A stretch of 30,211 nucleotides of DNA from a virus (taxonomy: Duplodnaviria > Heunggongvirae > Uroviricota > Caudoviricetes): the IMG/VR virus record IMGVR_UViG_2693429554_000017. One strand, written 5' to 3'. Both the position numbers and the translations under genes were made by a program. The notes beneath the pieces were generated by a model. The model did no database searches. It saw only the letters and a list, made by a program, of their open reading frames with translations, and was not told the origin of the DNA. The stretch's first letter is position 1, and each line of letters begins with the position of its first letter. Below, piece by piece: positions 1,051 through 29,021 of the stretch.

Positions 1051-1344
1051 TTAGCCAATCCTTTTCGCGGAGTGGTTGGACTCTGTTGACTCTGGCCCAA
1101 TGTGCGCGAGAGCCGGTGCGATTTGTCCTGCGTCCGGCGCGGTTTTATCTGTCATAAGCCATAGAGCATATTTTTGGAATGTGGGATGCATAGTGATTTT
1201 TAGCAAAGCTGTGCCACCGGGTTCAAAGTTTCCTCCTTCATATTTTTTAAGTGTGCTTAGTGGTAACTCTATGATTTCACAGAATTTTGATTGGCTTAGC
1301 CCTTCAGCCTCACGCAAGGCCTTAATCTTTTCGCTTAATTTCAT
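1051..1344 (-). CDS. C: immunity repressor C (HTH)
   Basis: 97-aa minus-strand ORF directly upstream of int and divergent from cox. N-terminal helix-turn-helix-like segment (SQSKFCEIIELPLSTLKKYE). Position and size match P2 C. Confidence 0.8.
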   Translation of the reverse strand: MKLSEKIKALREAEGLSQSKFCEIIELPLSTLKKYEGGNFEPGGTALLKITMHPTFQKYALWLMTDKTAPDAGQIAPALAHIGPESTESNHSAKRIG

Positions 1345-1465
1345 TTGACACGGTGCCTATATAGGGACTAAATTCCCTCAAAACTGGAACCTATATAGGT
1401 TCCATTGATTTGAGAATAAACCAGCGTCTAAACGGTTTTGAGTGGTTTAGAAAGGGCTGGATCCT
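1345..1465. promoter_or_regulatory. lysis/lysogeny switch region with divergent early promoters and candidate operators
   Basis: 121-bp gap between divergent C and cox. Perfect TTGACA at 1345-1350. Two copies of the 10-bp palindrome CCTATATAGG at 1356-1365 and 1390-1399; the second sits inside an 18-bp perfect palindrome GGAACCTATATAGGTTCC. Confidence 0.5.
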
Positions 1466-1753
1466 ATGAGGGTACCATATATGGACGCTGAAAATTATGT
1501 GATTCAGTATCCGCTTGATGCGGTTCATGTGGATAAATTTGCTGATTTATTAGGGAAACCAAAGACAGCTGTCAGTGAAATGGTGAAGGCAAATAAATTA
1601 CCAATTATTGAATTGCGTGATCCTTGCAAACCGAAGGCTCGTGCCGGTGAAAAATGGGTTTTCATTCCTGAGTTTAATCGCGCTGTACGTGAGGCGTTTT
1701 ATAACCGACCGGTTGAACAGCGTGATGCATGGCTTTTGTGGATGGGGTTGTGA
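1466..1753 (+). CDS. cox: Cox-like excisionase / early regulator
   Basis: 95-aa ORF, first gene of the rightward early operon, divergent from C. C-terminal WLLWMGL motif resembles the P2 Cox / 186 Apl family. Confidence 0.7.
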   Translation: MRVPYMDAENYVIQYPLDAVHVDKFADLLGKPKTAVSEMVKANKLPIIELRDPCKPKARAGEKWVFIPEFNRAVREAFYNRPVEQRDAWLLWMGL

Positions 1754-1755
1754 TT

Positions 1756-1926
1756 ATGAATGAGCCGCGTTGTATTGCTCAGTTATTGCGTAACGAAAGC
1801 CCCAGGGCGATTGACTTCACCATCACCCACGGGAAGGGACGCAAGGGAATCATTATCCGCACCAAAAAACAGAGTCCGTTAAAAAAGGCTCTGACCTTTC
1901 TGAAAAGCCGGAGGGTCTGGAAATGA
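1756..1926 (+). CDS. small early protein (P2 orf78-like)
   Basis: ORF 1729..1926; internal ATG at 1756 preferred (MNEPRCIAQLL...). Syntenic with P2 orf78 between cox and B. Confidence 0.45.
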   Translation: MNEPRCIAQLLRNESPRAIDFTITHGKGRKGIIIRTKKQSPLKKALTFLKSRRVWK

Positions 1927-2423
1927 CAGTGATGACGCTCAATCTCGTTGAAAAACAGCCAGCAGCTATGCGCCGGATAATTGGCAAGCATCTGGCCGTC
2001 CCTCGCTGGCAGGATACATGTGATTATTATAATCAGATGATGGAACGCGAACGGCTAACGGTTTGCTTCCATGCGCAGTTAAAACAGCGTCACGCAACGA
2101 TGCGTTTTGAAGAAATGAACGACGTCGAACGTGAACGGCTGGTTTGTGCAATTGATGAATTGCGTGGGGCATTCTCAAAACGCCGTCAGGTTGGCGCAAG
2201 TGAGTATGCATATATTAGTTTTTTAACAGTCAGTCAGCGTCGTACTTTATTTATGCATGCCGGTTTGACTGAAAAAGAATTCAACCAGCCATACTGGCGA
2301 ATTAATGAAGAATCATGTTACTGGCGTGATGCTTTATTCCGTGCATTACGTGAATTATTCAGCCTGTTTGAGTATGCACCGACAATTCTGACGTCGGTAA
2401 AACCAGAGCAATATCTGCATTAA
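1923..2423 (+). CDS. B: replication protein B
   Basis: 166-aa ORF, same length as P2 gpB as I recall it, in the syntenic position; start overlaps the upstream stop. Confidence 0.8.
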   Translation: MTVMTLNLVEKQPAAMRRIIGKHLAVPRWQDTCDYYNQMMERERLTVCFHAQLKQRHATMRFEEMNDVERERLVCAIDELRGAFSKRRQVGASEYAYISFLTVSQRRTLFMHAGLTEKEFNQPYWRINEESCYWRDALFRALRELFSLFEYAPTILTSVKPEQYLH

Positions 2424-2486
2424 ATAATTAACCAGAGTTTTTAACGCACTTAATCGTGCGGGGCTTCTTTTTGCCTGGAGAAAGTC

Positions 2487-2711
2487 ATGCATACAGTTTC
2501 TCAAAACAAGTGCGGTAAATACGCATTACTGCTGCAACAGGCCAGAGCCGAAGCACAGGCCGACGCAGCGACACGCTTTTCTTCTCATCTTGACGCCATG
2601 ATTCGCCATATCACAAAGGCGGAGTTATCCCGCGTGGAGATAGTCGAGCTGCTCAGTCAGGAGTCGGAAAAATTTCACAATATCGGATTGTCTCGCGGGG
2701 AGGTGCTTTGA
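2487..2711 (+). CDS. hypothetical early protein (P2 orf80-like)
   Basis: 74-aa ORF in the early operon; GGAG upstream of the ATG. Confidence 0.55.
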
Positions 2712-3010
2712 TGTCCTGTTCTCATTCAGTTGTATTACTGAATAACGCCTTAAAAATCGCCGTTATGAAAAATGGCGATTTGTCTCTTATTCAACTTTGC
2801 CTTGATAAAGAAAAACGCGACATAACTGAATCTGTTATCGCGATTTATCAGAATGAATTAAACCTCCTGTCTGATGTGGTCAATTTACTTGTTAAACGCG
2901 CTGTATTCCACAGGCAAATTTCCTCAGTGGATGAACTGACAAAATTAACGACAGAACTTGCCAGTTATTGCGCTGATGTATCCAGGAAACTTAACGATAA
3001 AAGGAGCTGA
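2708..3010 (+). CDS. hypothetical early protein (P2 orf81-like)
   Basis: 100-aa ORF; start overlaps the upstream stop (ATGA), suggesting translational coupling. Confidence 0.55.
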
Positions 3011-3012
3011 TA

Positions 3013-3237
3013 ATGCCGGACAACGTAGATTTTATTCAGGAACAACAGGCTGAATTACTGGAGCGCCAGATTAACGCGGCAAGGGTAAAACATTGCGGTG
3101 TTTCTGCGCTGGTTTGCGAAGAGTGTGACGCGCCAATACCTGCTGCCCGTCGTGCGGCTTACCCGTCAGCCACGCGTTGTGTTTCCTGTCAGTCAGTCTT
3201 TGAAGCAAAAAACAAACATTACCGGAGAACGGCATGA
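3013..3237 (+). CDS. DksA/TraR-family C4 zinc-finger protein (P2 orf82-like)
   Basis: 74 aa with CxxC...CxxC (CEECDAPIPAARRAAYPSATRCVSCQ), typical of the TraR/DksA C4 zinc finger. Confidence 0.7.
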   Translation: MPDNVDFIQEQQAELLERQINAARVKHCGVSALVCEECDAPIPAARRAAYPSATRCVSCQSVFEAKNKHYRRTA

Positions 3238-3509
3238 GTATTCGTATTGAAATTGGCGAACGTTATGTCGTTACCAGTGACAGCTTTCAGTTTATTCTCC
3301 ACGAGAAAAAGAGAGCGGAAAGCGGTAAAAACGCCGGTCAGGAATGGCTGGCGGTGGTTGGTTATTACCCGAAATTAAGCCAGCTCGTTTCAGGCCTGAT
3401 GCATCACGATATTCTGACCGGAAGCGCAAAGTCTTTTGCTGATTTAAACGTGCAGGTTGAGCAACTCAGCAAGCGTTGTTCAGAGGCTTTTGGCTCATAT
3501 GGCCGTTAA
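3234..3509 (+). CDS. hypothetical early protein (P2 orf83-like)
   Basis: 91-aa ORF, start overlapping the upstream stop; syntenic with P2 orf83 just before A. Confidence 0.55.
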   Translation: MSIRIEIGERYVVTSDSFQFILHEKKRAESGKNAGQEWLAVVGYYPKLSQLVSGLMHHDILTGSAKSFADLNVQVEQLSKRCSEAFGSYGR

Positions 3510-5775
3510 AGCCTCCGGGCGTTTTGTCCCTCCGTCAGCATTTGCCGCAGGCACCGGTAAGATGTTTACCGGTGCTTATGCATGGAACGCGCCACGCGAG
3601 GCCCTCGGGCGCGAAAGACCCCTTACACGTGACGAGATGCGTCAGGTGCAAGGTGTTTTATCCACGATTAACCGCCTGCCTTACTTTTTGCGCTCGCTGT
3701 TTACTTCACGCTATGACTACATCCGGCGCAATAAAAGCCCGGTGCACGGGTTTTATTTCCTCACATCCACTTTTCAGCGTCGTTTATGGCCGCGCATTGA
3801 GCGTGTGAATCAGCGCCATGAAATGAACACCGACGCGTCGTTACTGTTTCTGGCAGAGCGTGACCACTATGCGCGCCTGCCGGGAATGAATGACAAGGAG
3901 CTGAAAAAGTTTGCTGCCCGTATCTCATCGCAGCTTTTCATGATGTATGAGGAACTCAGCGATGCCTGGGTGGATGCGCATGGCGAAAAAGAATCGCTGT
4001 TTACGGATGAGGCGCAGGCTCACCTCTATGGTCATGTTGCTGGCGCTGCACGTGCTTTCAATATTTCCCCTCTCTACTGGAAAAAATACCGTAAAGGGCT
4101 GATGACCACGAGGCAGGCATATTCTGCCATTGCCCGTCTGTTTAACGATGAGTGGTGGACTCATCAGCTTAAAGGCCAGCGTATGCGCTGGCATGAAGCG
4201 TTAATGATAGCTGTCGGGGAGGTCAATAAAGACCGTTCTCCTTATGCCAGTAAACACGCCATTCGTGATGTGCGTGCGCGCCGCCAGGCAAATCTGGAAT
4301 TTCTTAAATCGTGTGACCTTGAAAACAGGGAAACCGGCGAGCGCATCGACCTTATCAGTAAGGCGATGGGCAGTATTTCTAATCCTGAAATTCGCCGGAT
4401 GGAGCTGATGAACACCATTGCCGGTATTGAGCGTTACGCCGCCGCAGAGGGTGATGTGGGGATGTTTATCACGCTGACCGCGCCGTCAAAGTATCACCCG
4501 ACTCGTCAGGTCAGAAAAGGCGAAAGTAAAACCGTTCAGCTTAATCACGGCTGGAACGATGAGGTATTTAATCCAAAGGATGCGCAGCGTTATCTCTGCC
4601 GCATCTGGAGCCTGATGCGCACGGCATTCAAGGATAATGATTTACAGGTCTACGGTTTGCGTGTCGTCGAGCCACACCACGACGGAACGCCGCACTGGCA
4701 TATGATGCTTTTTTGTAATCCACGCCAGCGTAACCAGATTATCGAAATCATGCGTCGCTATGCGCTCAAAGAGGATGGTGACGAAAGAGGAGCCGCGCGA
4801 AACCGTTTTCAGGCAAAGCACCTTAACCGGGGCGGTGCTGCGGGATATATCGCGAAATACATTTCAAAAAATATCGACGGCTATGCACTGGATGGTCAGC
4901 TCGATAACGATACCGGTAAGCCGCTTAAAGATACTGCCGCGGCTGTTACCGCATGGGCGTCAACGTGGCGCATCCCGCAATTTAAAACGGTTGGACTGCC
5001 GACAATGGGGGCTTACCGTGAACTACGCAAATTGCCTCGCGGCGTCAGTATTGCTGATGAGTTTGACGAACGCGTCGAGGCTGCTCGCGCTGCCGCAGAC
5101 AGTGGTGATTTTGCGTTGTATATCAGCGCGCAGGGTGGGGCAAATGTCCCGCGCGATTGTCAGACTGTCAGGGTTGCCCGTAGCCCGTCGGATGACGTTA
5201 ACGAGTACGAGGAAGAAGTCGAGAGAGTGGTCGGCATTTACGCGCCGCATCTCGGCGCGCGTCATATTCATATCACCAGAACGACGGACTGGTGCATTGT
5301 GCCGAAAGTTCCGGTCGTTGAGCCTTTGACTTTAAAAAGCGGCATCGCCGCGCCTCGGAGTCCTGTCAATAACTGTGGAAAGCTCACCGGTGGTGATACT
5401 TCGTTACTGGCTCCCACACCTTCTGAGCACGCCGCAGCAGTGCTTAATCTGGTTGATGACGGTGTTATTGAATGGAATGAACCGGAGGTCGTGAGGGCGC
5501 TCAGGGGCGCATTAAAACACGACCTGCGAACGCCAAACCGTCAGCAAAGAAACGGAAGCCCGTTAAAACCACATGAAATTGCACCATCGGCCAGACTGAC
5601 CCGGTCGGAAAGAATGCAAATTACCCGTATCCGCGTTGACCTTGCTCAGAACGGTATCAGGCCGCAGCGATGGGAGCTTGAGGCGCTGGCGCGTGGCGCG
5701 ACCGTAAATTATGACGGGAAAAAATTCACGTATCCGGTCGCTGATGAGTGGCCGGGGTTCTCGTTACCCATTTGA
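3499..5775 (+). CDS. A: rolling-circle replication initiator endonuclease A
   Basis: ORF 3457..5775; preferred start ATG 3499 (MAVKASGRF...), giving about 758 aa, close to P2 gpA as I recall. Contains HWHMMLF and a tyrosine-rich segment typical of phage Rep endonucleases. Confidence 0.9.
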   Translation: MAVKASGRFVPPSAFAAGTGKMFTGAYAWNAPREALGRERPLTRDEMRQVQGVLSTINRLPYFLRSLFTSRYDYIRRNKSPVHGFYFLTSTFQRRLWPRIERVNQRHEMNTDASLLFLAERDHYARLPGMNDKELKKFAARISSQLFMMYEELSDAWVDAHGEKESLFTDEAQAHLYGHVAGAARAFNISPLYWKKYRKGLMTTRQAYSAIARLFNDEWWTHQLKGQRMRWHEALMIAVGEVNKDRSPYASKHAIRDVRARRQANLEFLKSCDLENRETGERIDLISKAMGSISNPEIRRMELMNTIAGIERYAAAEGDVGMFITLTAPSKYHPTRQVRKGESKTVQLNHGWNDEVFNPKDAQRYLCRIWSLMRTAFKDNDLQVYGLRVVEPHHDGTPHWHMMLFCNPRQRNQIIEIMRRYALKEDGDERGAARNRFQAKHLNRGGAAGYIAKYISKNIDGYALDGQLDNDTGKPLKDTAAAVTAWASTWRIPQFKTVGLPTMGAYRELRKLPRGVSIADEFDERVEAARAAADSGDFALYISAQGGANVPRDCQTVRVARSPSDDVNEYEEEVERVVGIYAPHLGARHIHITRTTDWCIVPKVPVVEPLTLKSGIAAPRSPVNNCGKLTGGDTSLLAPTPSEHAAAVLNLVDDGVIEWNEPEVVRALRGALKHDLRTPNRQQRNGSPLKPHEIAPSARLTRSERMQITRIRVDLAQNGIRPQRWELEALARGATVNYDGKKFTYPVADEWPGFSLPI

Positions 5776-6033
5776 GTAAAAACACAACGTAATTTGATAT
5801 GGCATTGAATGGCTTATGCGGAGCAGTTATGGGGCAGCAGAAGGTCAATAGCATGCTGAATTAGAAGGCTAAATGCTATTGAGTGACTAGCATGTCGGTA
5901 AGGACAGCCGTTTGATCCGGGTCATAAAAGGCCATCCATTTAGTCTAATAAAATCATTGCGGGTAACCTTATGTCGACGCATAATTCGTCTTGAGCGAAG
6001 TCTTGTCAGTCTTTCATCGTATTGATGATGGGC

Positions 6034-6066
6034 GCAAAAAAACCACCCTGGCAGGTGGTTTTTTTG
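6034..6066. terminator. bidirectional rho-independent terminator
   Basis: AAAAAAACCACC-CTGGCA-GGTGGTTTTTTT: 12-bp stem, 6-nt loop, with A-run on one side and T-run on the other. Lies between the end of A (+) and the 37-aa ORF (-). Confidence 0.75.
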
Positions 6067-6077
6067 TTTGAAGCATA

Positions 6078-6191
6078 TTAAAGCATAATGCTGACATTGA
6101 TATTACTGACGTTTACTGACAAACCACTCGGACTACCGTTTGGATAGCCAAAGAGGGCCAGAACGAGAATGCAGTAATAGCATTTCTTCAT
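6078..6191 (-). CDS. 37-aa hydrophobic small protein of unknown function
   Basis: ATG at 6191-6189 preceded by AGGAGG with 5-nt spacing. Product MKKCYYCILVLALFGYPNGSPSGLSVNVSNINVSIML; stop at 6078, followed directly by the bidirectional terminator. It is the C-terminal part of the 97-aa track ORF 6078..6371, whose upstream part has no SD. Confidence 0.3.
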   Translation of the reverse strand: MKKCYYCILVLALFGYPNGSPSGLSVNVSNINVSIML

Positions 6192-6667
6192 ATTGCCTCC
6201 TGTAAGTAGAGGGCAACTTCCACCGGTATATGCGCTTCTTAGGTGGAATGACTTTTGAGCGAAGTCTTGCCCTGAAATAATGCTCTGTTTAAACGCAAAG
6301 TGATCTGGCATATCACCGAACAGAGAGCCTGAACAACACAACATATAGTATGTCGTTGTTTCTGGTTGCATTTTATGTTGTGTAATACTGGTTTTGCATC
6401 AAGGATGTTTGAGCTTTTTTTGATATAGCTCAAAGTAAAAAGCAGAGACTACGGATGATAAGGTCTTGAAAGCAATGTAAATTTTTTAAAGTTGCCAATT
6501 GCTTAAAAATGTACAGTTGCGGTATGGCGTACTTAAAAAGCTATGCATGCAACAAGTGAATGTTTTTGCATGCGTTGGGGATGTCCGTTCAGGCTGCGTG
6601 CGGTCAGGACTGGTGCGGATCCATAGTATCTATGCAACTGCATTAAAACCGACCCATGAAGCGGGCG

Positions 6668-6686
6668 GGCGAGGCGGGGAAAGCAC
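6668..6686. other. cos cohesive-end sequence
   Basis: GGCGAGGCGGGGAAAGCAC matches the 19-nt P2 cohesive end as I recall it. Lies in a GC-rich non-coding stretch just before Q, where P2 cos is. Confidence 0.6.
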
Positions 6687-6829
6687 TGCGCGCTGGCGGT
6701 GGTGCTGATTTTATTTTTTCAGCGTCTGAGCGCGTCGTGATAGCGTTTAGATTGTGCGCCGGGGCGTTGGTTTGCCTGCGGGCTGTTTTGTGCGGTGGTG
6801 AGCGTGTGAGGGCGTGATGACGGGGGTGT

Positions 6830-6851
6830 AAAAAAGCCGCCCGCAGGCGGC
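6830..6851 (-). terminator. rho-independent terminator after Q
   Basis: On the minus strand GCCGCC-TGCG-GGCGGC followed by TTTTTT, immediately after the Q stop codon. Confidence 0.6.
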
Positions 6852-6856
6852 GATGT

Positions 6857-7891
6857 TCAGCCGTTGTCAGTGTCCAGTGAGTAGTTTTTAAAGCGGATGA
6901 CCTCCTGACCGAGCCAGCCGTTTATTTCCCGAATCCTGTCCTGTAACGGGATAAGCTCATTGCGGACAAAGACCTTTGACACTTTCTCAATATCACCCAG
7001 CGACCCGACGTTCTCCGGCTTGCCGCCCATCAACTGAAAGGGGATGCGGTGCGCGTCAAGCAGGTCAGCGGCGCTGGCTTTTTTGATATTAAAAAAATCG
7101 TCCTTCGTTGCCACTTCACTGAGCGGGATAATTTTAATGCCGTCGGCTTTTCCCTGTGGTGCATAGAGAAACAGGTTTTTAAAGTTGTTGCGGCCTTTCG
7201 ACTTAACCATGTTTTCGCGAAGCGTTTCGATATCGTTGCGGTCCTGCACGGCATCGGTGACGTACATGATGTATCCGGCATGTGCGCCATTTTCGTAATA
7301 CTTGCGGCGGAACAGCGTGGCCGACTCATTCAGCCAGGCAGAATTAAGGGCGCTCAGATATTCCGGCAGGCCGTACAACTCCTGATTGATATCCGGCTCC
7401 AGCAGGTGAAACACGGAGCCGGGCGTGAAGGCTGTCGGCTCGTTGAAGGACGGCACCCACCAGTAAACATCCTCCTCCACGCCACGGCGGGTATATTTTG
7501 CCGGTGAGGTTTCCAGTCTGATGACCTTACCGGTGGTGCTGTAACGCTTTTCCAGAAACGCATTACCGAACACCAGAAAATCCAGCACAAAGCGGCTGAA
7601 ATCCTGCTGGGAAAGCCACGGATGCGGAATAAACGTTGAAGCCAGAATATTGCGTTTAACGTAAATCGGCGAGCTGTGATGCACGGCAGCACGCAGGCTT
7701 TTTGCCAGACCGGTAAAGCTGACCGGTGGCTCATACCATCTGCCGTTACTGATGCACTCGACGTAATCCAGAATGTCACGGCGGTCGAGTACCGGCACCG
7801 GCTCGCCAAAGGTGAATGCTTCCATTTTCGGGGCGCTGGCGGTGATTGTTTTTGCCGCAGGTTGCGGTGTTTTCCCTTTTTTCTTGCTCAT
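6857..7891 (-). CDS. Q: portal protein
   Basis: 344-aa ORF, same length as P2 gpQ as I recall; first gene after cos, leftward, adjacent to P. Confidence 0.9.
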   Translation of the reverse strand: MSKKKGKTPQPAAKTITASAPKMEAFTFGEPVPVLDRRDILDYVECISNGRWYEPPVSFTGLAKSLRAAVHHSSPIYVKRNILASTFIPHPWLSQQDFSRFVLDFLVFGNAFLEKRYSTTGKVIRLETSPAKYTRRGVEEDVYWWVPSFNEPTAFTPGSVFHLLEPDINQELYGLPEYLSALNSAWLNESATLFRRKYYENGAHAGYIMYVTDAVQDRNDIETLRENMVKSKGRNNFKNLFLYAPQGKADGIKIIPLSEVATKDDFFNIKKASAADLLDAHRIPFQLMGGKPENVGSLGDIEKVSKVFVRNELIPLQDRIREINGWLGQEVIRFKNYSLDTDNG

Positions 7892-9663
7892 CAGTAAAAC
7901 TCCAGAATGGTGGATGTCAGCGGGGTGCTGATACCGGCGGTGAGTGGCTCATTTAACAGGGCGTGCATGGTCGCCCAGGCGAGGTCGGCGTGGCTGGCTT
8001 CCTCGCTGCGGCTGGCCTCATAGGTGGCGCTGCGTCCGCTGCTGGTCATGGTCTTGCGGATAGCCATAAACGAGCTGGTGATGTCGGTGGCGCTGACGTC
8101 ATATTCCAGACAGCCACGGCGGATAACGTCTTTTGCCTTGAGCACCATTGCGGTTTTCATTTCCGGCGTGTAGCGGATATCGCGCGCGGCGGGATAGAAC
8201 GAGCGCACGAGCTGGAACACACCGACACCGAGGCCGGTGGCATCAATCCCGATGTATTCAACGTTATATTTTTCGGTGAGTTTGCGGATGGATTCCGCCT
8301 GAGTGGCAAAGTCCATGCCTTTCCACTGGTGACGCTCAAGTATCCTGAATTTGCCACCGGCCACCACCGGCGGTGCCAGTACCACGCATCCGGCGCTGTC
8401 GCCACGGTGTGACGGGTCGTAACCAATCCATACCGGGCGGGAACCGAACGGATTTGCGGCAAAGGGTGCATAGTCTTCCCATTCTTCCAGCGTGTCGACC
8501 ATGCAGCGTTGCAGCTCCTCGAACGGGAACACCGACGCCTTGTCGTCAACAAATTCACACATGAACAGGTTTTTAAAATCGTCGGCGCTGTTTTCGCGTT
8601 TAAGCTGCTCAATGTCGAACAATGTGCAGCCGCCTTTCAGGGCGTCCTCAATGGTGACAATCTGCCGCCACTGGCCGTCCGCACAGAGAAGCCCGCCGGC
8701 AAGGGCGTTATGACTGACGTCGATTTCCACGCGTTCGGCGGCGCTGGCGCGTCCCCGGTTAAACAGCTCACCCGACCAGAACGGGTAGGCGTCGTGCGCC
8801 AGCGTGGACGGAGTGGAGAAATAGGTCGAGCGCAGGTGACTCTGTGAGGCCATACCTGATGCCACCTTACGCAGTACCTGAAAATTCGGGATCCAGAAAA
8901 TCTCGTCGACGTACAGGTCGCCGTTATGGCTCTGCGCGGTGTTGGAGTTGGTGCCGAGAAAAATCAGTTTTGCGCCGTTATTGCCCAGGACAATCGGGTC
9001 ACCGGTCAGGTCAACGTCAACCAGACGGGCAAAGGCGATGATGTATTCGCGGAACACATACGCCTGCGTTTTACTGGCCGACAGAAAAATCTGGTTATGA
9101 CCGGTTTTCAGGGCGCGCAGCAGCGCCTCGCGGGAAAAATAAAACGTTGCGCCAATCTGGCGGGATTTCAGGATATCGCGGATGCGGTGCTCAAGCCCGG
9201 CGCGATACCAGTGCAACTGATAGTCGAAAGACTGCTCAAAGAAAATCTGCTCCAGCTTTTCGATGGCCTCGTCACTGAAAAAATTCTTTTTCGGTTTACG
9301 ACGCCCACCTTTGTTGCGGTTAGCGACGTTCGGATTAAGGTCTGCTTCGTTGCCGGTCTGACTGTAGCGGTTGACCCGTGCCAGTCGTTCAATCTGGCGT
9401 CCCAGCAGGTCAATTTCCTTGAAGTCACCGCCGGTTTTCTGCGGTTTGATGATGAGCTGGGTCAGTCGCGCTTCCAGACTCATTTCGACACGGCTGATGG
9501 GGGCAACACTGTCCCAGCCGTCGCGCTGTTTCCAGCTCTGCACCGTCGGGCGTTTCATCTGCAACATGGCGGCAATCTGCGGCACGGAAAATCCCTGCCA
9601 GTACAGCAGCGCCGCCTGACGACGCGGGTCGTGTAAAAGAGTGGTGTCTGTGGTGATGGTCAT
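7891..9663 (-). CDS. P: terminase large (ATPase) subunit
   Basis: ORF 7891..9693; preferred start ATG 9663-9661 (MTITTDTT...) with GAGG upstream. About 590 aa. Divergent from O. Confidence 0.9.
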   Translation of the reverse strand: MTITTDTTLLHDPRRQAALLYWQGFSVPQIAAMLQMKRPTVQSWKQRDGWDSVAPISRVEMSLEARLTQLIIKPQKTGGDFKEIDLLGRQIERLARVNRYSQTGNEADLNPNVANRNKGGRRKPKKNFFSDEAIEKLEQIFFEQSFDYQLHWYRAGLEHRIRDILKSRQIGATFYFSREALLRALKTGHNQIFLSASKTQAYVFREYIIAFARLVDVDLTGDPIVLGNNGAKLIFLGTNSNTAQSHNGDLYVDEIFWIPNFQVLRKVASGMASQSHLRSTYFSTPSTLAHDAYPFWSGELFNRGRASAAERVEIDVSHNALAGGLLCADGQWRQIVTIEDALKGGCTLFDIEQLKRENSADDFKNLFMCEFVDDKASVFPFEELQRCMVDTLEEWEDYAPFAANPFGSRPVWIGYDPSHRGDSAGCVVLAPPVVAGGKFRILERHQWKGMDFATQAESIRKLTEKYNVEYIGIDATGLGVGVFQLVRSFYPAARDIRYTPEMKTAMVLKAKDVIRRGCLEYDVSATDITSSFMAIRKTMTSSGRSATYEASRSEEASHADLAWATMHALLNEPLTAGISTPLTSTILEFY

Positions 9664-18594: not shown

Positions 18595-19790
18595 CAGTGA
18601 AATACTACGCCATTCTGACTAATCAGGGCGCAGCACGGCTGGCTAAAGCGACGATGCTCGGCAGTAAGCTGAATCTGACGCAAATGGCCGTTGGTGATGC
18701 GAATGGTGTCTTGCCGACACCAGACCCGGCACAGACAAAACTGATTAACCAGAAACGCATCGCGCCGCTGAATCTTCTGAGTGTTGACCCGAACAACCAG
18801 AGCCAGATTATTGCGGAGCAAATCATCCCTGAGAACGAGGGCGGATTCTGGATCCGTGAGATTGGGCTTTATGATGATGAAGGCGTACTCATTGCGGTGG
18901 CGAACTGCCCGGAAACGTACAAACCGCAGTTACAGGAAGGCAGTGGTCGTACCCAGACTATCCGCATGATTCTGGTTGTCACGAATACCGAAGCTATCAC
19001 GCTGAAAATCGACCCGTCGGTGGTACTGGCGACCCGTAAATACGTGGATGATGAAGTCCTGGAATTAAAGCTGTATGTGGATGACCAGATGAGAAACCAC
19101 ATTGCCGCACAGGATCCTCATACCCAGTATGCGCAGAAACATAATCCGACATTTACCGGAGAACCAAAAGCGCCGACGCCTGCCGCAGGAAATAACACCA
19201 CGCGGATTGCGACCACTGAGTTTGTTCAGGCCGCTATTACCGCTCTGATTAACGGTGCGCCTGACACGCTGGACACACTGAAAGAAATTGCCGCGGCCAT
19301 TAACAATGACCCGAAATTCAGCACCACCATTAACAATGCGCTGTCAGGTAAGCAGCCACTGGATGAGACGCTGACTCATTTGAGTGGAAAGGATGTTGCT
19401 GGTCTTCTCGCATACCTTCAATTGAAATCGGCCGCACAACGGGATGTGGGCACTGGCGCAAATCAAATCCCGGATATGAACTCTTTTCATATCTCAACGT
19501 CACAAACAGGATGGTGCAAATTTCCAAATGGACTAATTTTGCAGTGGGGAGTGACGACAACGATATCTGCGTCTGGTAGTGTTTCTTATCCAATACCATT
19601 CCCTGGTGGTTGTTTATTTGTGGGTAAAAATACTTATAGTCCAGTGGCTGCAACAACCGCTGTGTTTGAAATTGTTAATCCGTCTATGACTGGTTTCACT
19701 GCTGCAAACATCGGCAGTCTTACGCAAGGGTCTTCCACTTTTAATGCACCAACACCGTCAGGAATGGCGTTTTTTGCAATTGGATATTAA
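18591..19790 (+). CDS. H: tail fibre protein H (constant N-terminus plus current variable tip)
   Basis: 399-aa ORF; N-terminus resembles P2-family H (MAVGD..., WIREIGLYDDEGVLIAVAN). An inverted-repeat crossover region at 19427-19488 marks the boundary between constant and variable parts. Confidence 0.85.
   Translation: MTVKYYAILTNQGAARLAKATMLGSKLNLTQMAVGDANGVLPTPDPAQTKLINQKRIAPLNLLSVDPNNQSQIIAEQIIPENEGGFWIREIGLYDDEGVLIAVANCPETYKPQLQEGSGRTQTIRMILVVTNTEAITLKIDPSVVLATRKYVDDEVLELKLYVDDQMRNHIAAQDPHTQYAQKHNPTFTGEPKAPTPAAGNNTTRIATTEFVQAAITALINGAPDTLDTLKEIAAAINNDPKFSTTINNALSGKQPLDETLTHLSGKDVAGLLAYLQLKSAAQRDVGTGANQIPDMNSFHISTSQTGWCKFPNGLILQWGVTTTISASGSVSYPIPFPGGCLFVGKNTYSPVAATTAVFEIVNPSMTGFTAANIGSLTQGSSTFNAPTPSGMAFFAIGY
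19427..19488. repeat. left inverted repeat of invertible fibre segment (candidate crossover site)
   Basis: TTCAATTGAAATCGGCCGC is identical in inverted orientation at 21222-21240. Similarity continues imperfectly for about 43 bp more, encoding the same peptide (QLKSAAQRDVGTGANQIPDM) in both copies. Confidence 0.75.
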
Positions 19791-19792
19791 TC

Positions 19793-20224
19793 ATGAGCTA
19801 TGTATACAGCGCTAAAAAAAACGCTTTCTATCCCGTCGAGTTGCAGGACAACTATGAGGCATCAGGAACGTGGCCTGCCGATGGGATAGAAGTTGGAGTG
19901 AATGTATTTAATATTTTTTCTCAGCTTCCACCAGAAGGTAAACAGAGAATTCCTGATAGCAATGGAATGCCTGCCTGGGGCGATATTCCGCCGCCCACTC
20001 ATGATGAATTAGTTGCTGCGGCAACTGCCGAGAAACAGCATCGCATTGATGCTGCGAATGCATTCATGAGCAGCAGGCAATGGCCGGGAAAGGCCGCGAT
20101 GGGGCGTCTGAGCGCTGCGGACAAAGTTCAGTATAATTTATGGCTGGATTATCTTGATGCGCTGGAGGCAGTGGATACTGCCATCGCGCCGGATATCAAC
20201 TGGCCTGCTCGCCCGGCTGAGTAG
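19793..20224 (+). CDS. G: tail fibre assembly chaperone
   Basis: 143-aa ORF immediately after H; its C-terminal region (SSRQWPGKAAMGRL...YNLWLDYLDALEA) is shared with the inverted paralogue at 20447..20875. Confidence 0.8.
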   Translation: MSYVYSAKKNAFYPVELQDNYEASGTWPADGIEVGVNVFNIFSQLPPEGKQRIPDSNGMPAWGDIPPPTHDELVAAATAEKQHRIDAANAFMSSRQWPGKAAMGRLSAADKVQYNLWLDYLDALEAVDTAIAPDINWPARPAE

Positions 20225-20290
20225 GTCACTCGATATCGGGGCTATAGAGATATCAATCGCCTCCATTGCAGGCGTTACCAGATTTTAGCC

Positions 20291-20319
20291 AAAAAAAGCC
20301 CCTGCATTTCTGCAGGGGC
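20291..20319 (-). terminator. rho-independent terminator after the tRNA-like gene
   Basis: On the minus strand GCCCCTGCA-GAAA-TGCAGGGGC (9-bp perfect stem) followed by TTTTTTT, just past the 3' end of the tRNA-like sequence. Confidence 0.75.
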
Positions 20320-20327
20320 CTGATATC

Positions 20328-20403
20328 TGGTGCTGGCTGAATGGAATCGAACCATCGTCTTTCCGCGTACAATGCGAAAGCTCTACCACTGAGCTAAACC
20401 AGC
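20328..20403 (-). tRNA. tRNA-like gene, anticodon UGU (Thr) if canonical; atypical T-stem/acceptor junction
   Basis: 76 nt on the minus strand: GCTGGTT/AGCCAGC 7-bp acceptor stem, D-arm GCTC-AGTGGTA-GAGC, anticodon stem TTCGC/GCGGA with loop AUUGUAC, T-loop TTCGATT, discriminator A and encoded CCA. One extra unpaired C lies between T-stem and acceptor stem. Confidence 0.55.
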
Positions 20404-20414
20404 AATGGTGCAGA

Positions 20415-20442
20415 ATAATACCCGGATTCTGATAAAATGCAA
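20415..20442 (-). promoter_or_regulatory. candidate sigma70 promoter for the tRNA-like gene
   Basis: On the minus strand TTGCAT, 16-nt spacer, TATTAT, ending about 11 nt before the tRNA 5' end and starting 5 nt after the stop of the upstream tail fibre assembly gene. Confidence 0.45.
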
Positions 20443-20446
20443 TAGC

Positions 20447-20875
20447 TTATTGTGGCTGAACAGGCCATTCGATATCAGGTGCAGTTGAAATGCCGAGAGC
20501 TTCCAGCGCATCGAGATAATCCAGCCACAGGTTATACTGCGCCAGCTCATCCCCCTTCAGTCTGCCAATAGCCGCTTTGCCCGGCCACTGCCTGCTGCTC
20601 ATGTAATCGTTGGCCTGGCTAATCAACGCCTGTTTTTTAACGTCAGCTGCTGCAATGAGTTCTTCGCGTGTAGGTGGGGGCATATCCACCCATACTGGCA
20701 TTCCATCGTCTGCTCCCAGAGCTTTTCCAGGTGGTGGTGACCCTGTAAATGTACTGACTATATCATCGCTGATATCAATCATATCAGACATGTCCCATCC
20801 CGCCGATTCATAAGACGACAGCCAGGATTTCGGGAAAAAGTTCACAGTCGTTGCAGACCATTTATATCCGTTCAT
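20447..20875 (-). CDS. alternative tail fibre assembly chaperone (inverted copy)
   Basis: 142-aa minus-strand ORF convergent with G; shares the C-terminal SSRQWPGKAAIGRL...YNLWLDYLDALEA motif with G, N-terminus diverged. Confidence 0.8.
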   Translation of the reverse strand: MNGYKWSATTVNFFPKSWLSSYESAGWDMSDMIDISDDIVSTFTGSPPPGKALGADDGMPVWVDMPPPTREELIAAADVKKQALISQANDYMSSRQWPGKAAIGRLKGDELAQYNLWLDYLDALEALGISTAPDIEWPVQPQ

Positions 20876-20879
20876 TTAT

Positions 20880-21240
20880 TTAGCTCCCGAACGCCAGCCA
20901 GAATATTGTCATTGTACTGGCTGTATTCGTTGTGTATATGCTGAATCGCGACGTGCTATCTACATTGACGTTGAAACTGACAGGTCCGGTTCCATAGAGG
21001 CCGGGGTTAACCAGAGCAGGAATCACACAGGAGCAACGGTTAGGAAACGGAACAGGAAAAAACACAGCGTTACCTGATGAACCACCGGTGATGTTTGGTG
21101 CATTTCCCCCATCAATACCATGCCATTTGGAAACCGGTAATAAAATGCCATGGTTGTCGAACCGCCCGTAAAACTGCTCATATCCGGTATCTGATTCGCA
21201 CCAGTACCCACGTCTCGTTGCGCGGCCGATTTCAATTGAA
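20880..21240 (-). pseudogene. alternative tail-fibre variable tip, disrupted by two frameshifts
   Basis: From the right inverted repeat the minus strand encodes LQLKSAAQRDVGTGANQIPDM...FPNG (parallel to H 19427 onward). Homology to the active tip continues only by changing frame twice, around the G5 run 21106-21110 and the T7 run 21056-21062. Track ORFs 21023..21280 and 20880..21065 are the fragments. Confidence 0.6.
21179..21240. repeat. right inverted repeat of invertible fibre segment (candidate crossover site)
   Basis: Reverse complement of 21222-21240 equals 19427-19445 (19/19). The imperfect extension to 21179 matches 19446-19488 with about 8 mismatches. Confidence 0.75.
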
Positions 21241-21307
21241 CGTTTAAGAAAATGCAGAGATAACGGCTAACTGGCATCATCTCCGGTTTTTATTCAGGGG
21301 ATCCATC

Positions 21308-21901
21308 ATGCTTATTGGCTATGTCCGCGTATCAACAAATGACCAGAATACGGAATTGCAGCGTAACGCGCTGGAGTGTGCAGGATGTGAGCTGATTTTT
21401 GAGGACAAAATCAGCGGCACGAAGTCCGACTGGCCGGGACTGAAAAAACTGCTCAGGACATTATCGGAGGGGGATACACTGGTAGTCTGGAAGCTGGACC
21501 GGCTGGGGCGTAGTATGCGGCATCTGGTCATTCTGGTTGAGGAGCTGCGCGAACGCGGCATTAATTTTCGCAGCCTGACGGATGCCATTGATACCAGCAC
21601 GCCAATGGGGCGTTTTTTCTTTCATGTGATGGGTGCCCTGGCTGAAATGGAACGAGAACTCATTGTCGAGCGGACTCGCGCCGGACTGGAAGCGGCCAGA
21701 GCTAAAGGTCGTATTGGTGGCAGACGTCCGAAGCTCACCGCGAGTGAGTGGGAACAGGCAGGACGGTTGCTGGCTGCGGGTGAATCACGTCAACGCGTGG
21801 TGCTGATTTTTGATATTGGCCTGTCCACGCTCTATAAAAAATTCCCCTCATCAGCGGCAAAGAATAAATTGTGTCATCCCTTAGCCAACCGGGACAAATA
21901 G
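21308..21901 (+). CDS. serine recombinase, DNA invertase (Gin/Hin/Cin/Pin family)
   Basis: 197 aa. N-terminal resolvase/invertase catalytic domain (MLIGYVRVSTNDQNTELQRNAL with the active-site Ser in YVRVST; LVVWKLDRLGRS) and a C-terminal HTH. Adjacent to the right inverted repeat. Confidence 0.9.
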   Translation: MLIGYVRVSTNDQNTELQRNALECAGCELIFEDKISGTKSDWPGLKKLLRTLSEGDTLVVWKLDRLGRSMRHLVILVEELRERGINFRSLTDAIDTSTPMGRFFFHVMGALAEMERELIVERTRAGLEAARAKGRIGGRRPKLTASEWEQAGRLLAAGESRQRVVLIFDIGLSTLYKKFPSSAAKNKLCHPLANRDK

Positions 21902-28613: not shown

Positions 28614-29021
28614 TTACTTACCTGTGTAGGTATGAGTTTTGGATAACACTACTGTTTGTGCAGGTTTTTCCATTAACGGAGCGATTTCATTGCATGTGGC
28701 TAATGGGTCTTCAAAGGTATATCCAATAGACTTATATTGGTTAACTATATTGATTTCACTTACATTTTTTAAAAATGAAGAAGGAGCGTCATGTGTCCAA
28801 AGTGGGGTGCATACACCGGACATAATTAAATGATTATAGGCTTCAGATGTGATTTTTTTACCAGGGAGAACAACGGTAAGAGAGCTATCTTTTATTGTGA
28901 TTTCCAGTGGTTGCCATGGTTTCAGTTGTTTTTGAAGAGTTTTAATGTCATTCGTGTTTGCGTATGCATTGAGTGAAATTATTAAGGTGGTTATTGCCAT
29001 TATTGATTTAAGAGTTGCCAT
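28614..29021 (-). CDS. secreted/periplasmic protein of unknown function (moron)
   Basis: 135-aa minus-strand ORF with AAGGA about 8 nt upstream. N-terminal signal peptide ending AYA (MATLKSIMAITTLIISLNAYA|NTND...), two Cys in the mature part. Markedly AT-rich compared with flanking phage genes. Confidence 0.6.
   Translation of the reverse strand: MATLKSIMAITTLIISLNAYANTNDIKTLQKQLKPWQPLEITIKDSSLTVVLPGKKITSEAYNHLIMSGVCTPLWTHDAPSSFLKNVSEINIVNQYKSIGYTFEDPLATCNEIAPLMEKPAQTVVLSKTHTYTGK

What the first reader, a model, noticed from the sequence alone, without database searches (positions are those of the whole stretch)
20225..20446. Self-contained tRNA-like gene in the spacer between the two convergent tail-fibre assembly genes
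The 222-bp spacer between G (+) and its inverted paralogue (-) holds a complete minus-strand unit: a sigma70-like promoter (TTGCAT-16-TATTAT), a 76-nt cloverleaf-capable sequence with encoded CCA and a UGU anticodon loop, and a strong hairpin-plus-T7 terminator. P2 has no RNA gene here, and in Mu/P1-type invertible segments this spacer is short and empty. The sequence deviates from a canonical tRNA by one unpaired nucleotide between T-stem and acceptor stem, so it may be an unusual tRNA, a pseudo-tRNA or a tRNA-derived regulatory RNA. Because it lies inside the invertible segment, its orientation relative to flanking transcription would flip with the switch.
Basis: seen in the sequence. Interest (0 to 1): 0.6.

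Follow-up and report, generated by a model that had tools for sequence, protein, structure and literature searches.

The report
Spare threonine tRNA in P2-like prophage
A P2-like prophage of E. coli carries, between its two alternative tail-fibre assembly genes, a small self-contained gene for a threonine tRNA that reads the codon ACA; it is real but rare and slightly odd in shape, and it duplicates the one host tRNA that phage P2's own Old defence nuclease is known to destroy.

Summary
Window 20328-20403 (-) is a tRNA-Thr(UGU) gene, called by ARAGORN and by Rfam (56.4 bits; gathering score 29), with encoded CCA. It has a -10 TATTAT with a weak -35, and an 11-bp hairpin plus T7 terminator. NCBI's pipeline already annotates it as tRNA-Thr in three RefSeq E. 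coli genomes, so the gene call is not new.

It is rare: 3 of 5,426 complete E. coli genomes. None of 79 loci around close relatives of the neighbouring invertase has a tRNA, and sister segments have no spacer at this junction. It carries the bacterial ThrRS identity elements and the standard tertiary nucleotides. It also has one bulged nucleotide at the T-stem/acceptor junction and an A32...C38 anticodon loop. Among 54 related viral tRNA-Thr sequences, only it and one sibling have the bulge and C38. The sibling has anticodon CGU and occurs in Enterobacter.

Best reading: an expressed cargo tRNA that backs up host thrU, the only ACA reader and the main target of P2 Old (NAR 2025). Resistance to Old is unproven, because only one of the two published resistance features is present. 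Codon supply is a weaker alternative.

Whether this segment still inverts is doubtful. Its inner crossover half-sites are aberrant and all six copies have one orientation.

The parts
20328..20403 (-). tRNA-Thr(UGU) gene, 76 nt, CCA encoded. Anticodon at 20371-20369. Extra (bulged) nucleotide at 20340 or 20339. U28 at 20377.
   Evidence: ARAGORN. Rfam RF00005, 56.4 bits. Cloverleaf MFE. PGAP annotation as tRNA-Thr in CP039404, CP070229 and CP148268.
20415..20420 (-). -10 hexamer TATTAT, 11 nt upstream of tRNA position 1
   Evidence: Read from the sequence. Conserved in the CGU sibling inside the 96-nt shared block, window 20325-20420. Not listed by the consensus scan because the -35 is weak.
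20437..20442 (-). -35-like hexamer TTGCAT (3/6 match), 16-nt spacer; starts 4 nt after the G' stop codon
   Evidence: Read from the sequence. The sibling has TTGAGT at the same 16-nt spacing in otherwise unrelated sequence. Inferred, not shown.
20289..20321 (-). Intrinsic terminator: 11-bp stem (7 G-C), 4-nt loop, T7 run. Begins 7 nt after CCA.
   Evidence: Terminator scan. The primary-transcript fold is cloverleaf plus hairpin, z = -4.09. The sibling has a different hairpin plus T-run (T7-T8) at the same place.
20225..20288 (.). Rest of the spacer between the G stop and the terminator. Contains a weak plus-strand hairpin (CGCCT...AGGCG) and GATATC repeats. No gene found.
   Evidence: The permissive Rfam scan finds nothing but the tRNA above threshold.
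19793..20224 (+). Tail-fibre assembly gene G (Caudo_TAP), currently in the expressed orientation
   Evidence: Pfam PF02413, 2.6e-31. PGAP annotation.
20447..20875 (-). Alternative tail-fibre assembly gene G' (Caudo_TAP), convergent with G
   Evidence: Pfam PF02413, 9.2e-28. PGAP annotation.
20880..21257 (-). Promoterless alternative tail-fibre C-terminal part (Hv', Gp53-like_C)
   Evidence: Pfam PF21882. PGAP annotation.
19405..19430 (+). Left crossover site inside H: TTCTCGCATACC-TT-CAATTGAAATCG. Outer half canonical, inner half aberrant. Start of the 83-nt inverted repeat 19405-19487.
   Evidence: Sister sites that demonstrably recombine were defined from L083 vs L084.
21227..21252 (-). Right crossover site (read on the minus strand): TTTTCTTAAACG-TT-CAATTGAAATCG. 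End of the inverted repeat 21170-21252.
21308..21901 (+). Serine DNA invertase (Resolvase + HTH_7), 197 aa, intact
   Evidence: Pfam. 78-98% identical relatives in 79 viral loci.

Best explanation
This is a genuine, independently transcribed tRNA-Thr(UGU) gene. It entered as a cargo insert of about 220 bp at the normally empty junction between the two convergent tail-fibre assembly genes of a P2-like prophage. That junction lies in the G-FI interval, where P2 carries fun(Z).

Proposed working (inferred): a sigma-70 promoter (TTGCAT-16-TATTAT) starts a transcript about 5 nt upstream of the mature 5' end. RNase P removes the leader. The 3' trailer up to the hairpin terminator is trimmed back to the encoded CCA. 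Host ThrRS charges the tRNA, and it decodes ACA, plus other ACN codons by wobble.

The cell thereby gains a second, very divergent source of the only ACA-reading tRNA. The host's single copy, thrU, is the primary lethal target of the P2 Old nuclease. The most likely selective value is insurance against loss of tRNA-Thr(UGU) to tRNA-cutting defence or competition nucleases. A modest boost to ACA decoding for ACA-rich early and accessory phage genes is a secondary benefit.

In the orientation seen in all copies, the gene is antisense to the late operon. Its expression should therefore mainly be that of the lysogen.

What is shown: the gene, its structure, its identity elements, its rarity, its insertion into an otherwise empty site, and conservation of the unit in a second context. 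What is inferred: transcription, charging, and any anti-nuclease benefit.

My estimates: about 0.8 that it is a functional tRNA, and about 0.3 that nuclease evasion is its main role.
For: - Two independent tools call the tRNA. PGAP annotates it as tRNA-Thr with no pseudogene flag.
- The bacterial Thr identity set in Table 1 of PMC9976931 is G1-C72, C2-G71, G4-C69, G5-C68, G35, U36. All of these are present in the sequence.
- The standard tertiary nucleotides are present by direct reading: U8, A14, G15:C48, G18G19, A21, U33, A37, G53-U54-U55-C56, A58, C61.
- The Rfam score lies within the range of genuine host tRNAs (Cys 54.4, Tyr 53.4), though below host thrU at 73.8.
- A sibling tRNA-Thr(CGU) in Enterobacter differs at only 2 of 76 positions and keeps the same bulge. 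The shared block stops at the -10 box and 3 nt past CCA. Both contexts nevertheless have a TTG-type -35 at 16 nt and a hairpin plus T-run terminator built from unrelated sequence. That is the pattern expected when function is conserved while sequence turns over.
- Insertion: 0 of 79 invertase-neighbourhood loci have a tRNA. Sister convergent assembly genes abut.
- Link to Old: PMC12445682 shows P2 Old kills by cutting thrU at paired CNG motifs (nt 28-30 and 40-42), that thrU is the sole UGU tRNA, that phage tRNA-Thr(UGU) rescue, and that changing UGU to CGU abolishes rescue. The window tRNA differs from its sibling at exactly the wobble base (UGU, not CGU) and at C28->U28, which removes the site-1 cytosine.
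- In the wider clade of 54 viral tRNA-Thr sequences, 31 have lost both CNG motifs and 20 have a 4-pair anticodon stem.
- ACA makes up 16.5% of prophage Thr codons against 10.5% in 36 host genes, p = 0.003. It makes up about 30% in early and regulatory genes, summed by hand from the per-gene counts.
Against: - There are no expression or charging data.
- The promoter is sub-threshold.
- The bulge interrupts the acceptor/T-stem helix. It costs about 17 bits relative to host tRNA-Thr and about 2.5 kcal/mol. It could impair EF-Tu or processing-enzyme recognition.
- The published rule for Old resistance needs both CNG alteration and a shortened anticodon stem. C28U/G42A alone gave no protection. Here C40-G41-G42 is intact and the stem has 5 pairs (one of them U.G), so resistance cannot be inferred.
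- This prophage has no old gene and no PADLOC hit for any of the four proteins tested. No trigger that would expose a P2-like phage to Old is known.
- Late structural genes use ACA at host-like frequency, 12%.
- The two siblings could reflect a recent transfer rather than long purifying selection.
Confidence: 0.6

Rival explanations
1. Codon supply only. The tRNA is functional, but its value is simply to raise the supply of the low-abundance ACA decoder for prophage genes, with no connection to tRNA-cutting nucleases.
For: ACA is enriched in the prophage relative to a host sample: 16.5% vs 10.5% of Thr codons, 10.8 vs 5.3 per 1000 codons, p = 0.003. The enrichment is strongest in early and regulatory genes (about 30%) and in the silent-orientation genes G' + H' (7 of 16). 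thrU is a single-copy gene.
Against: The late structural genes, which dominate translation demand, use ACA at 12%, like the host. The same codon bias is presumably shared by the very many P2-like prophages that have no tRNA (0 of 79 related loci). Counts for the segment genes are too small to be significant.
Confidence: 0.2
2. Decaying or non-functional tRNA. A once-functional cargo tRNA was crippled by a 1-nt insertion in the T-stem and by a non-standard 32/38 pair, and now hitchhikes in the segment.
For: Among 54 related viral tRNA-Thr sequences, the bulge and C38 occur only in this tRNA and its sibling; A32 is shared with one other, a GGU tRNA. The Rfam score is about 17 bits below host tRNA-Thr. 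Deleting the bulged U improves the fold from -23.7 to -26.2 kcal/mol. The gene is extremely rare.
Against: The bulge is shared by two lineages in different genera and different genomic contexts. Both retain a -10 box, a -35-like element and a terminator. All ThrRS identity elements and tertiary nucleotides are intact (plus the sequence). The six UGU copies are identical across the 76-nt tRNA. PGAP does not flag it as a pseudogene.
Confidence: 0.15
3. Not a decoder. The unit acts in cis or as RNA structure, for example as a terminator/insulator and RNase P processing site between the convergent operons, or as a target or scar for tRNA-specific integrases.
For: The strong terminator would end the late operon if the segment were in the other orientation. 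In metagenome contig L088 a P4-type integrase lies about 3.3 kb from the tRNA.
Against: Sister segments manage with no spacer at all. A terminator alone would not need an intact cloverleaf, ThrRS identity elements and its own promoter. In L088 the breakpoint lies inside G', on the 5' side of the tRNA, not at the tRNA 3' end where such integrases act. attP fragments are partial tRNAs, whereas this gene is complete.
Confidence: 0.05

Closest known systems
Phage-encoded 'rescue' tRNA-Thr(UGU), e.g. the phage 21 tRNA-Thr and library tRNA-Thr6, which replace thrU cleaved by P2 Old (Govande et al., NAR 2025, PMC12445682)
   Same: Same anticodon and amino-acid identity. Carried by a temperate coliphage. 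Anticodon stem completely different from thrU, with the site-1 cytosine (C28) replaced by U, as in tRNA-Thr21.
   Different: The second CNG (C40-G41-G42) is intact and the stem is not shortened, so only one of the two published resistance factors is present. It also carries a T-stem bulge and an A32...C38 loop not described for those tRNAs. Its carrier is itself a P2-family phage, one without old. Neither cleavage nor rescue has been tested.
Widespread viral tRNA-Thr(UGU) clade sharing the 5' half GCTGGTTTAGCTCAGT(N)GGTAGAGC, including the tRNA downstream of Q in Klebsiella phage 5 LV-2017
   Same: Identical acceptor 5' strand and D-arm, and the same anticodon. About 80% overall identity to the Klebsiella phage copy.
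   Different: 51 of 54 relatives have no bulge, 51 of 54 have pyrimidine-32, and 52 of 54 have A38. Only this tRNA and its CGU sibling have the bulge, C38 and the AAGAC variable loop; A32 is shared with one other, a GGU tRNA. The known relatives sit in lambdoid late regions or large lytic phages, not in a P2-type tail-fibre segment.
Host E. coli thrU, tRNA-Thr(UGU)
   Same: Same anticodon, the same four acceptor-stem ThrRS determinants and the same discriminator A73.
   Different: Every pair of the anticodon stem differs. The D-loop is one nucleotide shorter and there is one extra nucleotide at the T/acceptor junction. Rfam scores are 56.4 vs 73.8 bits.
Gin/Cin/Hin-type invertible tail-fibre segments (Mu G, P1 C and the P2-like sister segments)
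   Same: Constant H part, two alternative variable parts each with an assembly gene, inverted repeats, and an adjacent serine invertase. Sister segments at the same locus are found in both orientations.
   Different: This one carries a 222-bp tRNA unit where Mu has 28 bp and the sisters have none. Its inner crossover half-sites (CAATTGAAATCG) depart from the family consensus, and only one orientation is observed.

Membership tests
Bacterial elongator tRNA (Rfam RF00005, class I) | Score above the curated threshold with a full-length match to the covariance model | tested here: met
   56.4 bits vs gathering score 29, model positions 1-71 of 71. ARAGORN call.
Bacterial elongator tRNA (Rfam RF00005, class I) | Cloverleaf with 7/4/5/5-bp stems and an uninterrupted acceptor/T-stem stack (no nucleotide between positions 65 and 66) | tested here: not met
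   The stems are present, but one extra nucleotide sits at the T-stem/acceptor junction. It is absent from host thrU and thrT and from 51 of 54 related viral tRNAs.
Bacterial elongator tRNA (Rfam RF00005, class I) | Conserved tertiary-contact nucleotides (U8, A14, G15:C48, G18G19, A21, U33, purine-37, G53-T54-Psi55-C56, A58, C61) and encoded CCA | tested here: met
   Read directly from the sequence. Position 32 is A and position 38 is C, which is non-standard: only 3 of 54 and 2 of 54 in the related clade.
Bacterial elongator tRNA (Rfam RF00005, class I) | Transcribed, processed, aminoacylated and used on the ribosome | not testable with these tools
   No expression data are available. The promoter-like element and the terminator are predictions only.
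Substrate of bacterial threonyl-tRNA synthetase | Identity set G1-C72, C2-G71, G4-C69, G5-C68, G35, U36 (PMC9976931, Table 1) | tested here: met
   All six are present in the sequence. G34 in the table applies to the GGU isoacceptor; host thrU also has U34.
Old-resistant phage rescue tRNA-Thr (PMC12445682) | UGU anticodon (required for rescue; CGU abolishes it) | tested here: met
   Anticodon TGT. The requirement is stated.
Old-resistant phage rescue tRNA-Thr (PMC12445682) | Alteration of the paired CNG motifs at nt 28-30 and 40-42 | tested here: inconclusive
   Nt 28-30 read UCG (motif lost; U28.G42 wobble). Nt 40-42 read CGG (motif kept). It is the only half-altered case among 54 relatives.
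Old-resistant phage rescue tRNA-Thr (PMC12445682) | Shortened anticodon stem (loss of a terminal pair), needed together with the CNG change | tested here: not met
   U27-A43, U28.G42, C29-G41, G30-C40 and C31-G39 give five pairs. The rule is given.
Old-resistant phage rescue tRNA-Thr (PMC12445682) | Resists cleavage by P2 Old and rescues Old + Gam toxicity | not testable with these tools
   This needs the biochemical and genetic assays of that paper.
Gin/Hin/Cin-type invertible segment (the tRNA's context) | Adjacent intact serine invertase; inverted repeats bounding alternative promoterless tail-fibre parts | tested here: met
Gin/Hin/Cin-type invertible segment (the tRNA's context) | Two 12-2-12 crossover sites matching the family half-site consensus on both halves | tested here: not met
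   The sites score 12 and 13 of 18 consensus positions, against 17 of 18 in a sister segment that has inverted. The inner half-site CAATTGAAATCG is unique among about 80 related loci.
Gin/Hin/Cin-type invertible segment (the tRNA's context) | Both orientations found in nature | tested here: inconclusive
   All six copies (CP039404, CP070229, CP148268, L003, L087, L088) share one orientation. The sample is small and possibly clonal.
Phage moron (autonomous cargo transcription unit) | Present in some but not other closely related phages; own promoter and terminator; inserted between conserved genes | tested here: met
   Absent from 79 of 79 related loci. Sister junctions have no spacer. Terminator and promoter-like element are present. 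P2 carries a different cargo gene, fun(Z), in the same G-FI interval.

The most novel reading that the evidence does not exclude
A P2-family prophage that lacks Old carries a structurally remodelled tRNA-Thr(UGU) with U28, A32...C38 and a bulged T-stem. On this reading the tRNA escapes Old-type or other tRNA-cutting nucleases, making it a counter-weapon in competition among P2-like phages or against co-resident defence elements. If the segment can still invert, its output would also be coupled to the host-range switch. In the other orientation it would lie downstream of, and co-directional with, the late operon, and its terminator would end that operon.
Probability: 0.2. Interest if true: 0.65.

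Novelty: new member of a known kind. Interest (0 to 1): 0.4.

Why it matters
Phage-borne tRNAs are now thought to serve largely as replacements for host tRNAs destroyed by defence nucleases. In 2025 the classic P2 Old exclusion system was shown to act by destroying tRNA-Thr(UGU). A P2-family prophage that carries its own very divergent copy of exactly that tRNA is a ready-made natural test case. It could show whether P2-like phages face tRNA-Thr-targeting attack themselves, and whether a T-stem bulge and an A32...C38 loop are tolerated by the translation machinery. It also shows that RNA genes can be cargo in P2 variable regions, which published large-scale surveys examined only for protein genes. 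If the tRNA turns out to be inert, the finding is simply a rare hitchhiker that automated annotation had already labelled correctly.

Tried and rejected
- One search returned nothing because my pattern had 16 N where 14 were needed. That null result is void. It was redone.
- One search's 70-odd metagenome hits are an unrelated tRNA family that matches only at the fixed positions. Discarded.
- Megablast of the spacer against deposited phages found nothing. The distant search found only generic tRNA-Thr similarity of about 80% or less.
No alignment deep enough for a covariation test could be built, so I did not build a covariance model.
- PADLOC scans of four proteins (the ogr-adjacent ORF, gpB, the recombinase and gpA) and an ORF listing of the old/tin slot gave no defence gene. 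I therefore rejected the idea that the tRNA is an antidote to a resident Old.
- The plasmid search with the sibling locus hit only an IS110 end.
- Sub-threshold Rfam hits (Leu leader, OmrA-B, MicL) all sit on the terminator hairpin and were dismissed.
- Literature searches for a tRNA inside an invertible tail-fibre segment or in P2-like phages returned only tRNA genes used as integration sites, or 'no tRNA found' statements.
- The Old paper's supplementary tRNA sequences are not held, so no direct comparison with the tested rescue tRNAs was possible.
- I could not check whether the three host strains also carry old elsewhere. The E. coli search returns only top rows and offers no protein mode.
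- I considered and rejected a thrW-type attachment-site origin for the CGU sibling. It is a complete gene with its own signals and is unlike host thrW as I recall that sequence; this was not checked with a tool.

Full report
**Observation**

The window is a complete P2-like prophage. It runs from the integrase at its left end to ogr, and in E. coli 377323_2f (CP039404) it lies between cpxP and fieF. The window matches that record exactly over the parts I compared.

G (+) ends at 20224 and its paralogue G' (-) ends at 20447, leaving a 222-bp spacer. ARAGORN finds one tRNA in the whole window: tRNA-Thr(tgt) at 20328-20403 on the minus strand. Rfam's tRNA model matches it end to end at 56.4 bits, against a gathering score of 29. 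The minimum-energy fold is a cloverleaf.

An 11-bp hairpin with seven G-C pairs, followed by seven T, begins 7 nt after the encoded CCA. The predicted primary transcript folds as cloverleaf plus terminator, z = -4.1. It matches only 3/6 + 5/6, and the consensus scan did not list it.

The extra nucleotide is real. ARAGORN draws an unpaired C between the T-stem and the acceptor stem. Rfam places a bulged U next to a G49-C65 pair. Both host tRNA-Thr genes lack it. A permissive Rfam scan of the whole segment finds nothing else above threshold.

**Already annotated, but rare**

NCBI's pipeline annotates this gene as tRNA-Thr in the three complete E. coli genomes that contain the spacer, out of 5,426. 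In one of them an IS200C element has landed just after the terminator.

Deposited phage genomes have no close match. The nearest is about 80% identical, a tRNA downstream of Q in a lambdoid Klebsiella phage.

A family-specific pattern with all stems left free found:
- the same arrangement in one isolate-derived viral contig (L003) and two metagenome contigs (L087, L088);
- a sibling in one viral contig (L005);
- the same sibling in one of 185,579 species-representative genomes, Enterobacter sp. Bisph1 (L081).

**The sibling**

The Enterobacter-type copy differs at two of 76 positions. Its anticodon is CGU instead of UGU, and it has C28 instead of U28. It keeps the same extra nucleotide.

The block shared by the two contexts is window 20325-20420, from the -10 hexamer to 3 nt past CCA. 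Outside that block the sequences are unrelated. Even so, both have a TTG-type -35 at 16 nt and a hairpin plus T-run terminator within about 8 nt of CCA.

I read this as conservation of an expressed monocistronic tRNA unit while its less constrained parts turned over. A recent transfer of a larger unit cannot be excluded.

In both contexts the gene lies beside tail-fibre gene fragments of a P2-type tail module. In Enterobacter it sits next to an Acyl_transf_3 acyltransferase.

**Is it a usable tRNA?**

The bacterial threonine identity set in Table 1 of PMC9976931 is G1-C72, C2-G71, G4-C69, G5-C68, G35 and U36. All are present (plus the sequence). So are the standard tertiary-contact nucleotides: U8, A14, G15:C48, G18G19, A21, U33, A37, G53-U54-U55-C56, A58 and C61.

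Its Rfam score is lower than that of host tRNA-Thr (73.8 and 74.6 bits) but within the range of genuine host tRNAs such as Cys (54.4) and Tyr (53.4).

I compared it with 54 distinct viral tRNAs that share its acceptor/D-arm 5' half; 52 of them have anticodon UGU. Only this tRNA and its sibling have the bulge, C38 and the AAGAC variable loop. A32 is shared with one other, a GGU tRNA. It is therefore a highly derived member of a widespread phage tRNA-Thr(UGU) group.

Deleting the bulged U would give a perfect T-stem and a better fold, -26.2 vs -23.7 kcal/mol. The bulge is thus a cost that two lineages have nevertheless retained.

**An insertion into an empty junction**

- None of 79 loci around 78-98% identical relatives of the neighbouring invertase contains a tRNA. 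The only RNA genes found are host ssrA at three prophage ends.
- In five sister segments with two convergent assembly genes, the genes abut or overlap, with gaps of about -11 to -2 nt. In an O157 prophage they overlap by 29 bp.
- Mu's U and U' stops are 28 bp apart.
- Reference P2 has the nonessential gene fun(Z) in the G-FI interval and no RNA gene there.

**What it might do**

A 2025 paper (PMC12445682) shows that P2 Old kills by cutting host tRNA-Thr(UGU) after the cytosines of paired CNG motifs at nt 28-30 and 40-42. It shows that thrU is the only UGU tRNA in E. coli, that phage tRNA-Thr(UGU) rescue the cells by replacing it, and that changing a rescue tRNA's anticodon to CGU abolishes rescue.

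The window tRNA has the right anticodon, and every pair of its anticodon stem differs from thrU. Its two differences from the sibling are the wobble base and C28->U28, which removes the site-1 cytosine.

In the wider clade, 31 of 54 tRNAs have lost both CNG motifs and 20 have a four-pair anticodon stem. That fits nuclease pressure on this tRNA species.

The same paper, however, shows that resistance needs both a CNG change and a shortened stem, and that C28U/G42A alone does not protect. Here C40-G41-G42 is intact and the stem has five pairs. Resistance therefore cannot be claimed.

The prophage itself has no old. The old/tin slot (5776-6856) holds no ORF longer than 97 aa, and the four proteins scanned gave no PADLOC hit.

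**Codon supply**

| Gene set | ACA share of Thr codons |
|---|---|
| Whole prophage | 16.5% |
| 36 neighbouring host genes | 10.5% (p = 0.003 vs prophage) |
| Late structural genes | 12% |
| Early and regulatory genes | about 30% (hand sum) |
| G' + H' fragment | 7 of 16 |

This is a modest signal, and P2-like phages without a tRNA presumably share it.

**The switch**

The layout is that of a Gin/Hin-type invertible segment:
- an 83-nt inverted repeat, 19405-19487 and 21170-21252;
- a promoterless Hv' and G' on the opposite strand;
- an intact serine invertase at 21308-21901.

Sister segments at exactly this position have flipped in nature. Strains AR_0137 and Y5 are collinear outside the segment and inverted inside it at 99.9% identity. 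That defines crossover sites of the form TTCTCGCATACC-TT-GGTTTGGGAGAA.

In the window the outer half-sites are the same, but both inner half-sites read CAATTGAAATCG. That sequence is found in none of about 80 related loci. The sites score 12 and 13 of 18 consensus positions, against 17 of 18 in the sister.

All six known copies are in one orientation. The two inner half-sites are identical over 19 nt, which could mean they are still constrained. I therefore leave invertibility open but doubtful.

In the observed orientation the tRNA is antisense to the late operon, and no canonical plus-strand terminator follows G. Its expression is therefore expected mainly in the lysogen. This is an inference.

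**Verdict**

This is a real, rare, structurally unusual cargo tRNA-Thr(UGU). The gene call itself is not new. Its placement, its odd structure and its possible link to Old-type tRNA attack make it moderately interesting and directly testable. No paper in the searchable library describes a tRNA carried by a P2-like phage or inside an invertible tail-fibre segment.

Noticed in passing
window 19405-19430 and 21227-21252: Both inner half-sites of the inversion crossover sites read CAATTGAAATCG instead of the family's [G/C]GTTT..GA.AA. This form is unique among about 80 related loci. The two are identical to each other over 19 nt, and divergence from the sister segments begins exactly after the TT core. 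The host-range switch may be frozen or may use a variant site.
   Followed up: yes
L083 (CP021879) vs L084 (CP013483), locus 1318-2517: A sister segment is inverted between two E. coli strains at 99.9% identity, although in both strains the adjacent recombinase gene is a 108-nt truncated pseudogene. The inversion must predate the truncation or be catalysed in trans by another invertase.
   Followed up: partly
window 5776-6856: The old/tin cargo slot between replication gene A and the portal gene is about 1.08 kb with no PGAP gene and no ORF above 97 aa. This prophage appears to carry no protein defence cargo there.
   Followed up: partly
L002 (CP148268) 7399-7857: In one of the three E. coli genomes an IS200C element is inserted immediately after the T-run of the tRNA terminator. 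The tRNA unit is left intact and the rest of the spacer is displaced.
   Followed up: no
L088 (metagenome contig ERZ773221 NODE-4572) 1070-8093: This contig has the same G-spacer-tRNA unit, with one substitution in the promoter spacer. Homology breaks 83 nt into the 3' end of G', at the conserved LWLDYLDAL-coding stretch. What follows is unrelated DNA that includes a P4-type tyrosine integrase. It is either a rearranged remnant that kept the tRNA or an assembly chimera.
   Followed up: partly
L005 7322-9589; L081 377-2202: The CGU sibling tRNA lies directly upstream of an Acyl_transf_3 (O-antigen acetyltransferase-like) gene and next to tail-fibre fragments and a gpU gene. In L005 the sheath-to-gpU block is inverted relative to the flanking tail-fibre sequences, which suggests a large rearrangement.
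   Followed up: partly
window 28614-29021 (-): A 135-aa ORF between ogr and the prophage end (PGAP 'hypothetical protein') has no Pfam or PADLOC hit. It uses ACA for 6 of its 16 Thr codons. It is probably a cargo gene of unknown function.
   Followed up: partly
loci L171-L286 (viral contigs): Among 54 distinct viral tRNA-Thr sequences sharing one acceptor/D-arm, 31 have lost both anticodon-stem CNG motifs and 20 have only four anticodon-stem pairs. This matches the two published routes to Old resistance and suggests such pressure is widespread.
   Followed up: partly
window 20225-20330 (+): The plus-strand RNA downstream of G folds unusually stably (-39.8 kcal/mol, z = -4.1). The fold includes long-range pairing between GATATC-containing stretches at both ends of the terminator region. 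It might stabilise the 3' end of the G message.
   Followed up: no
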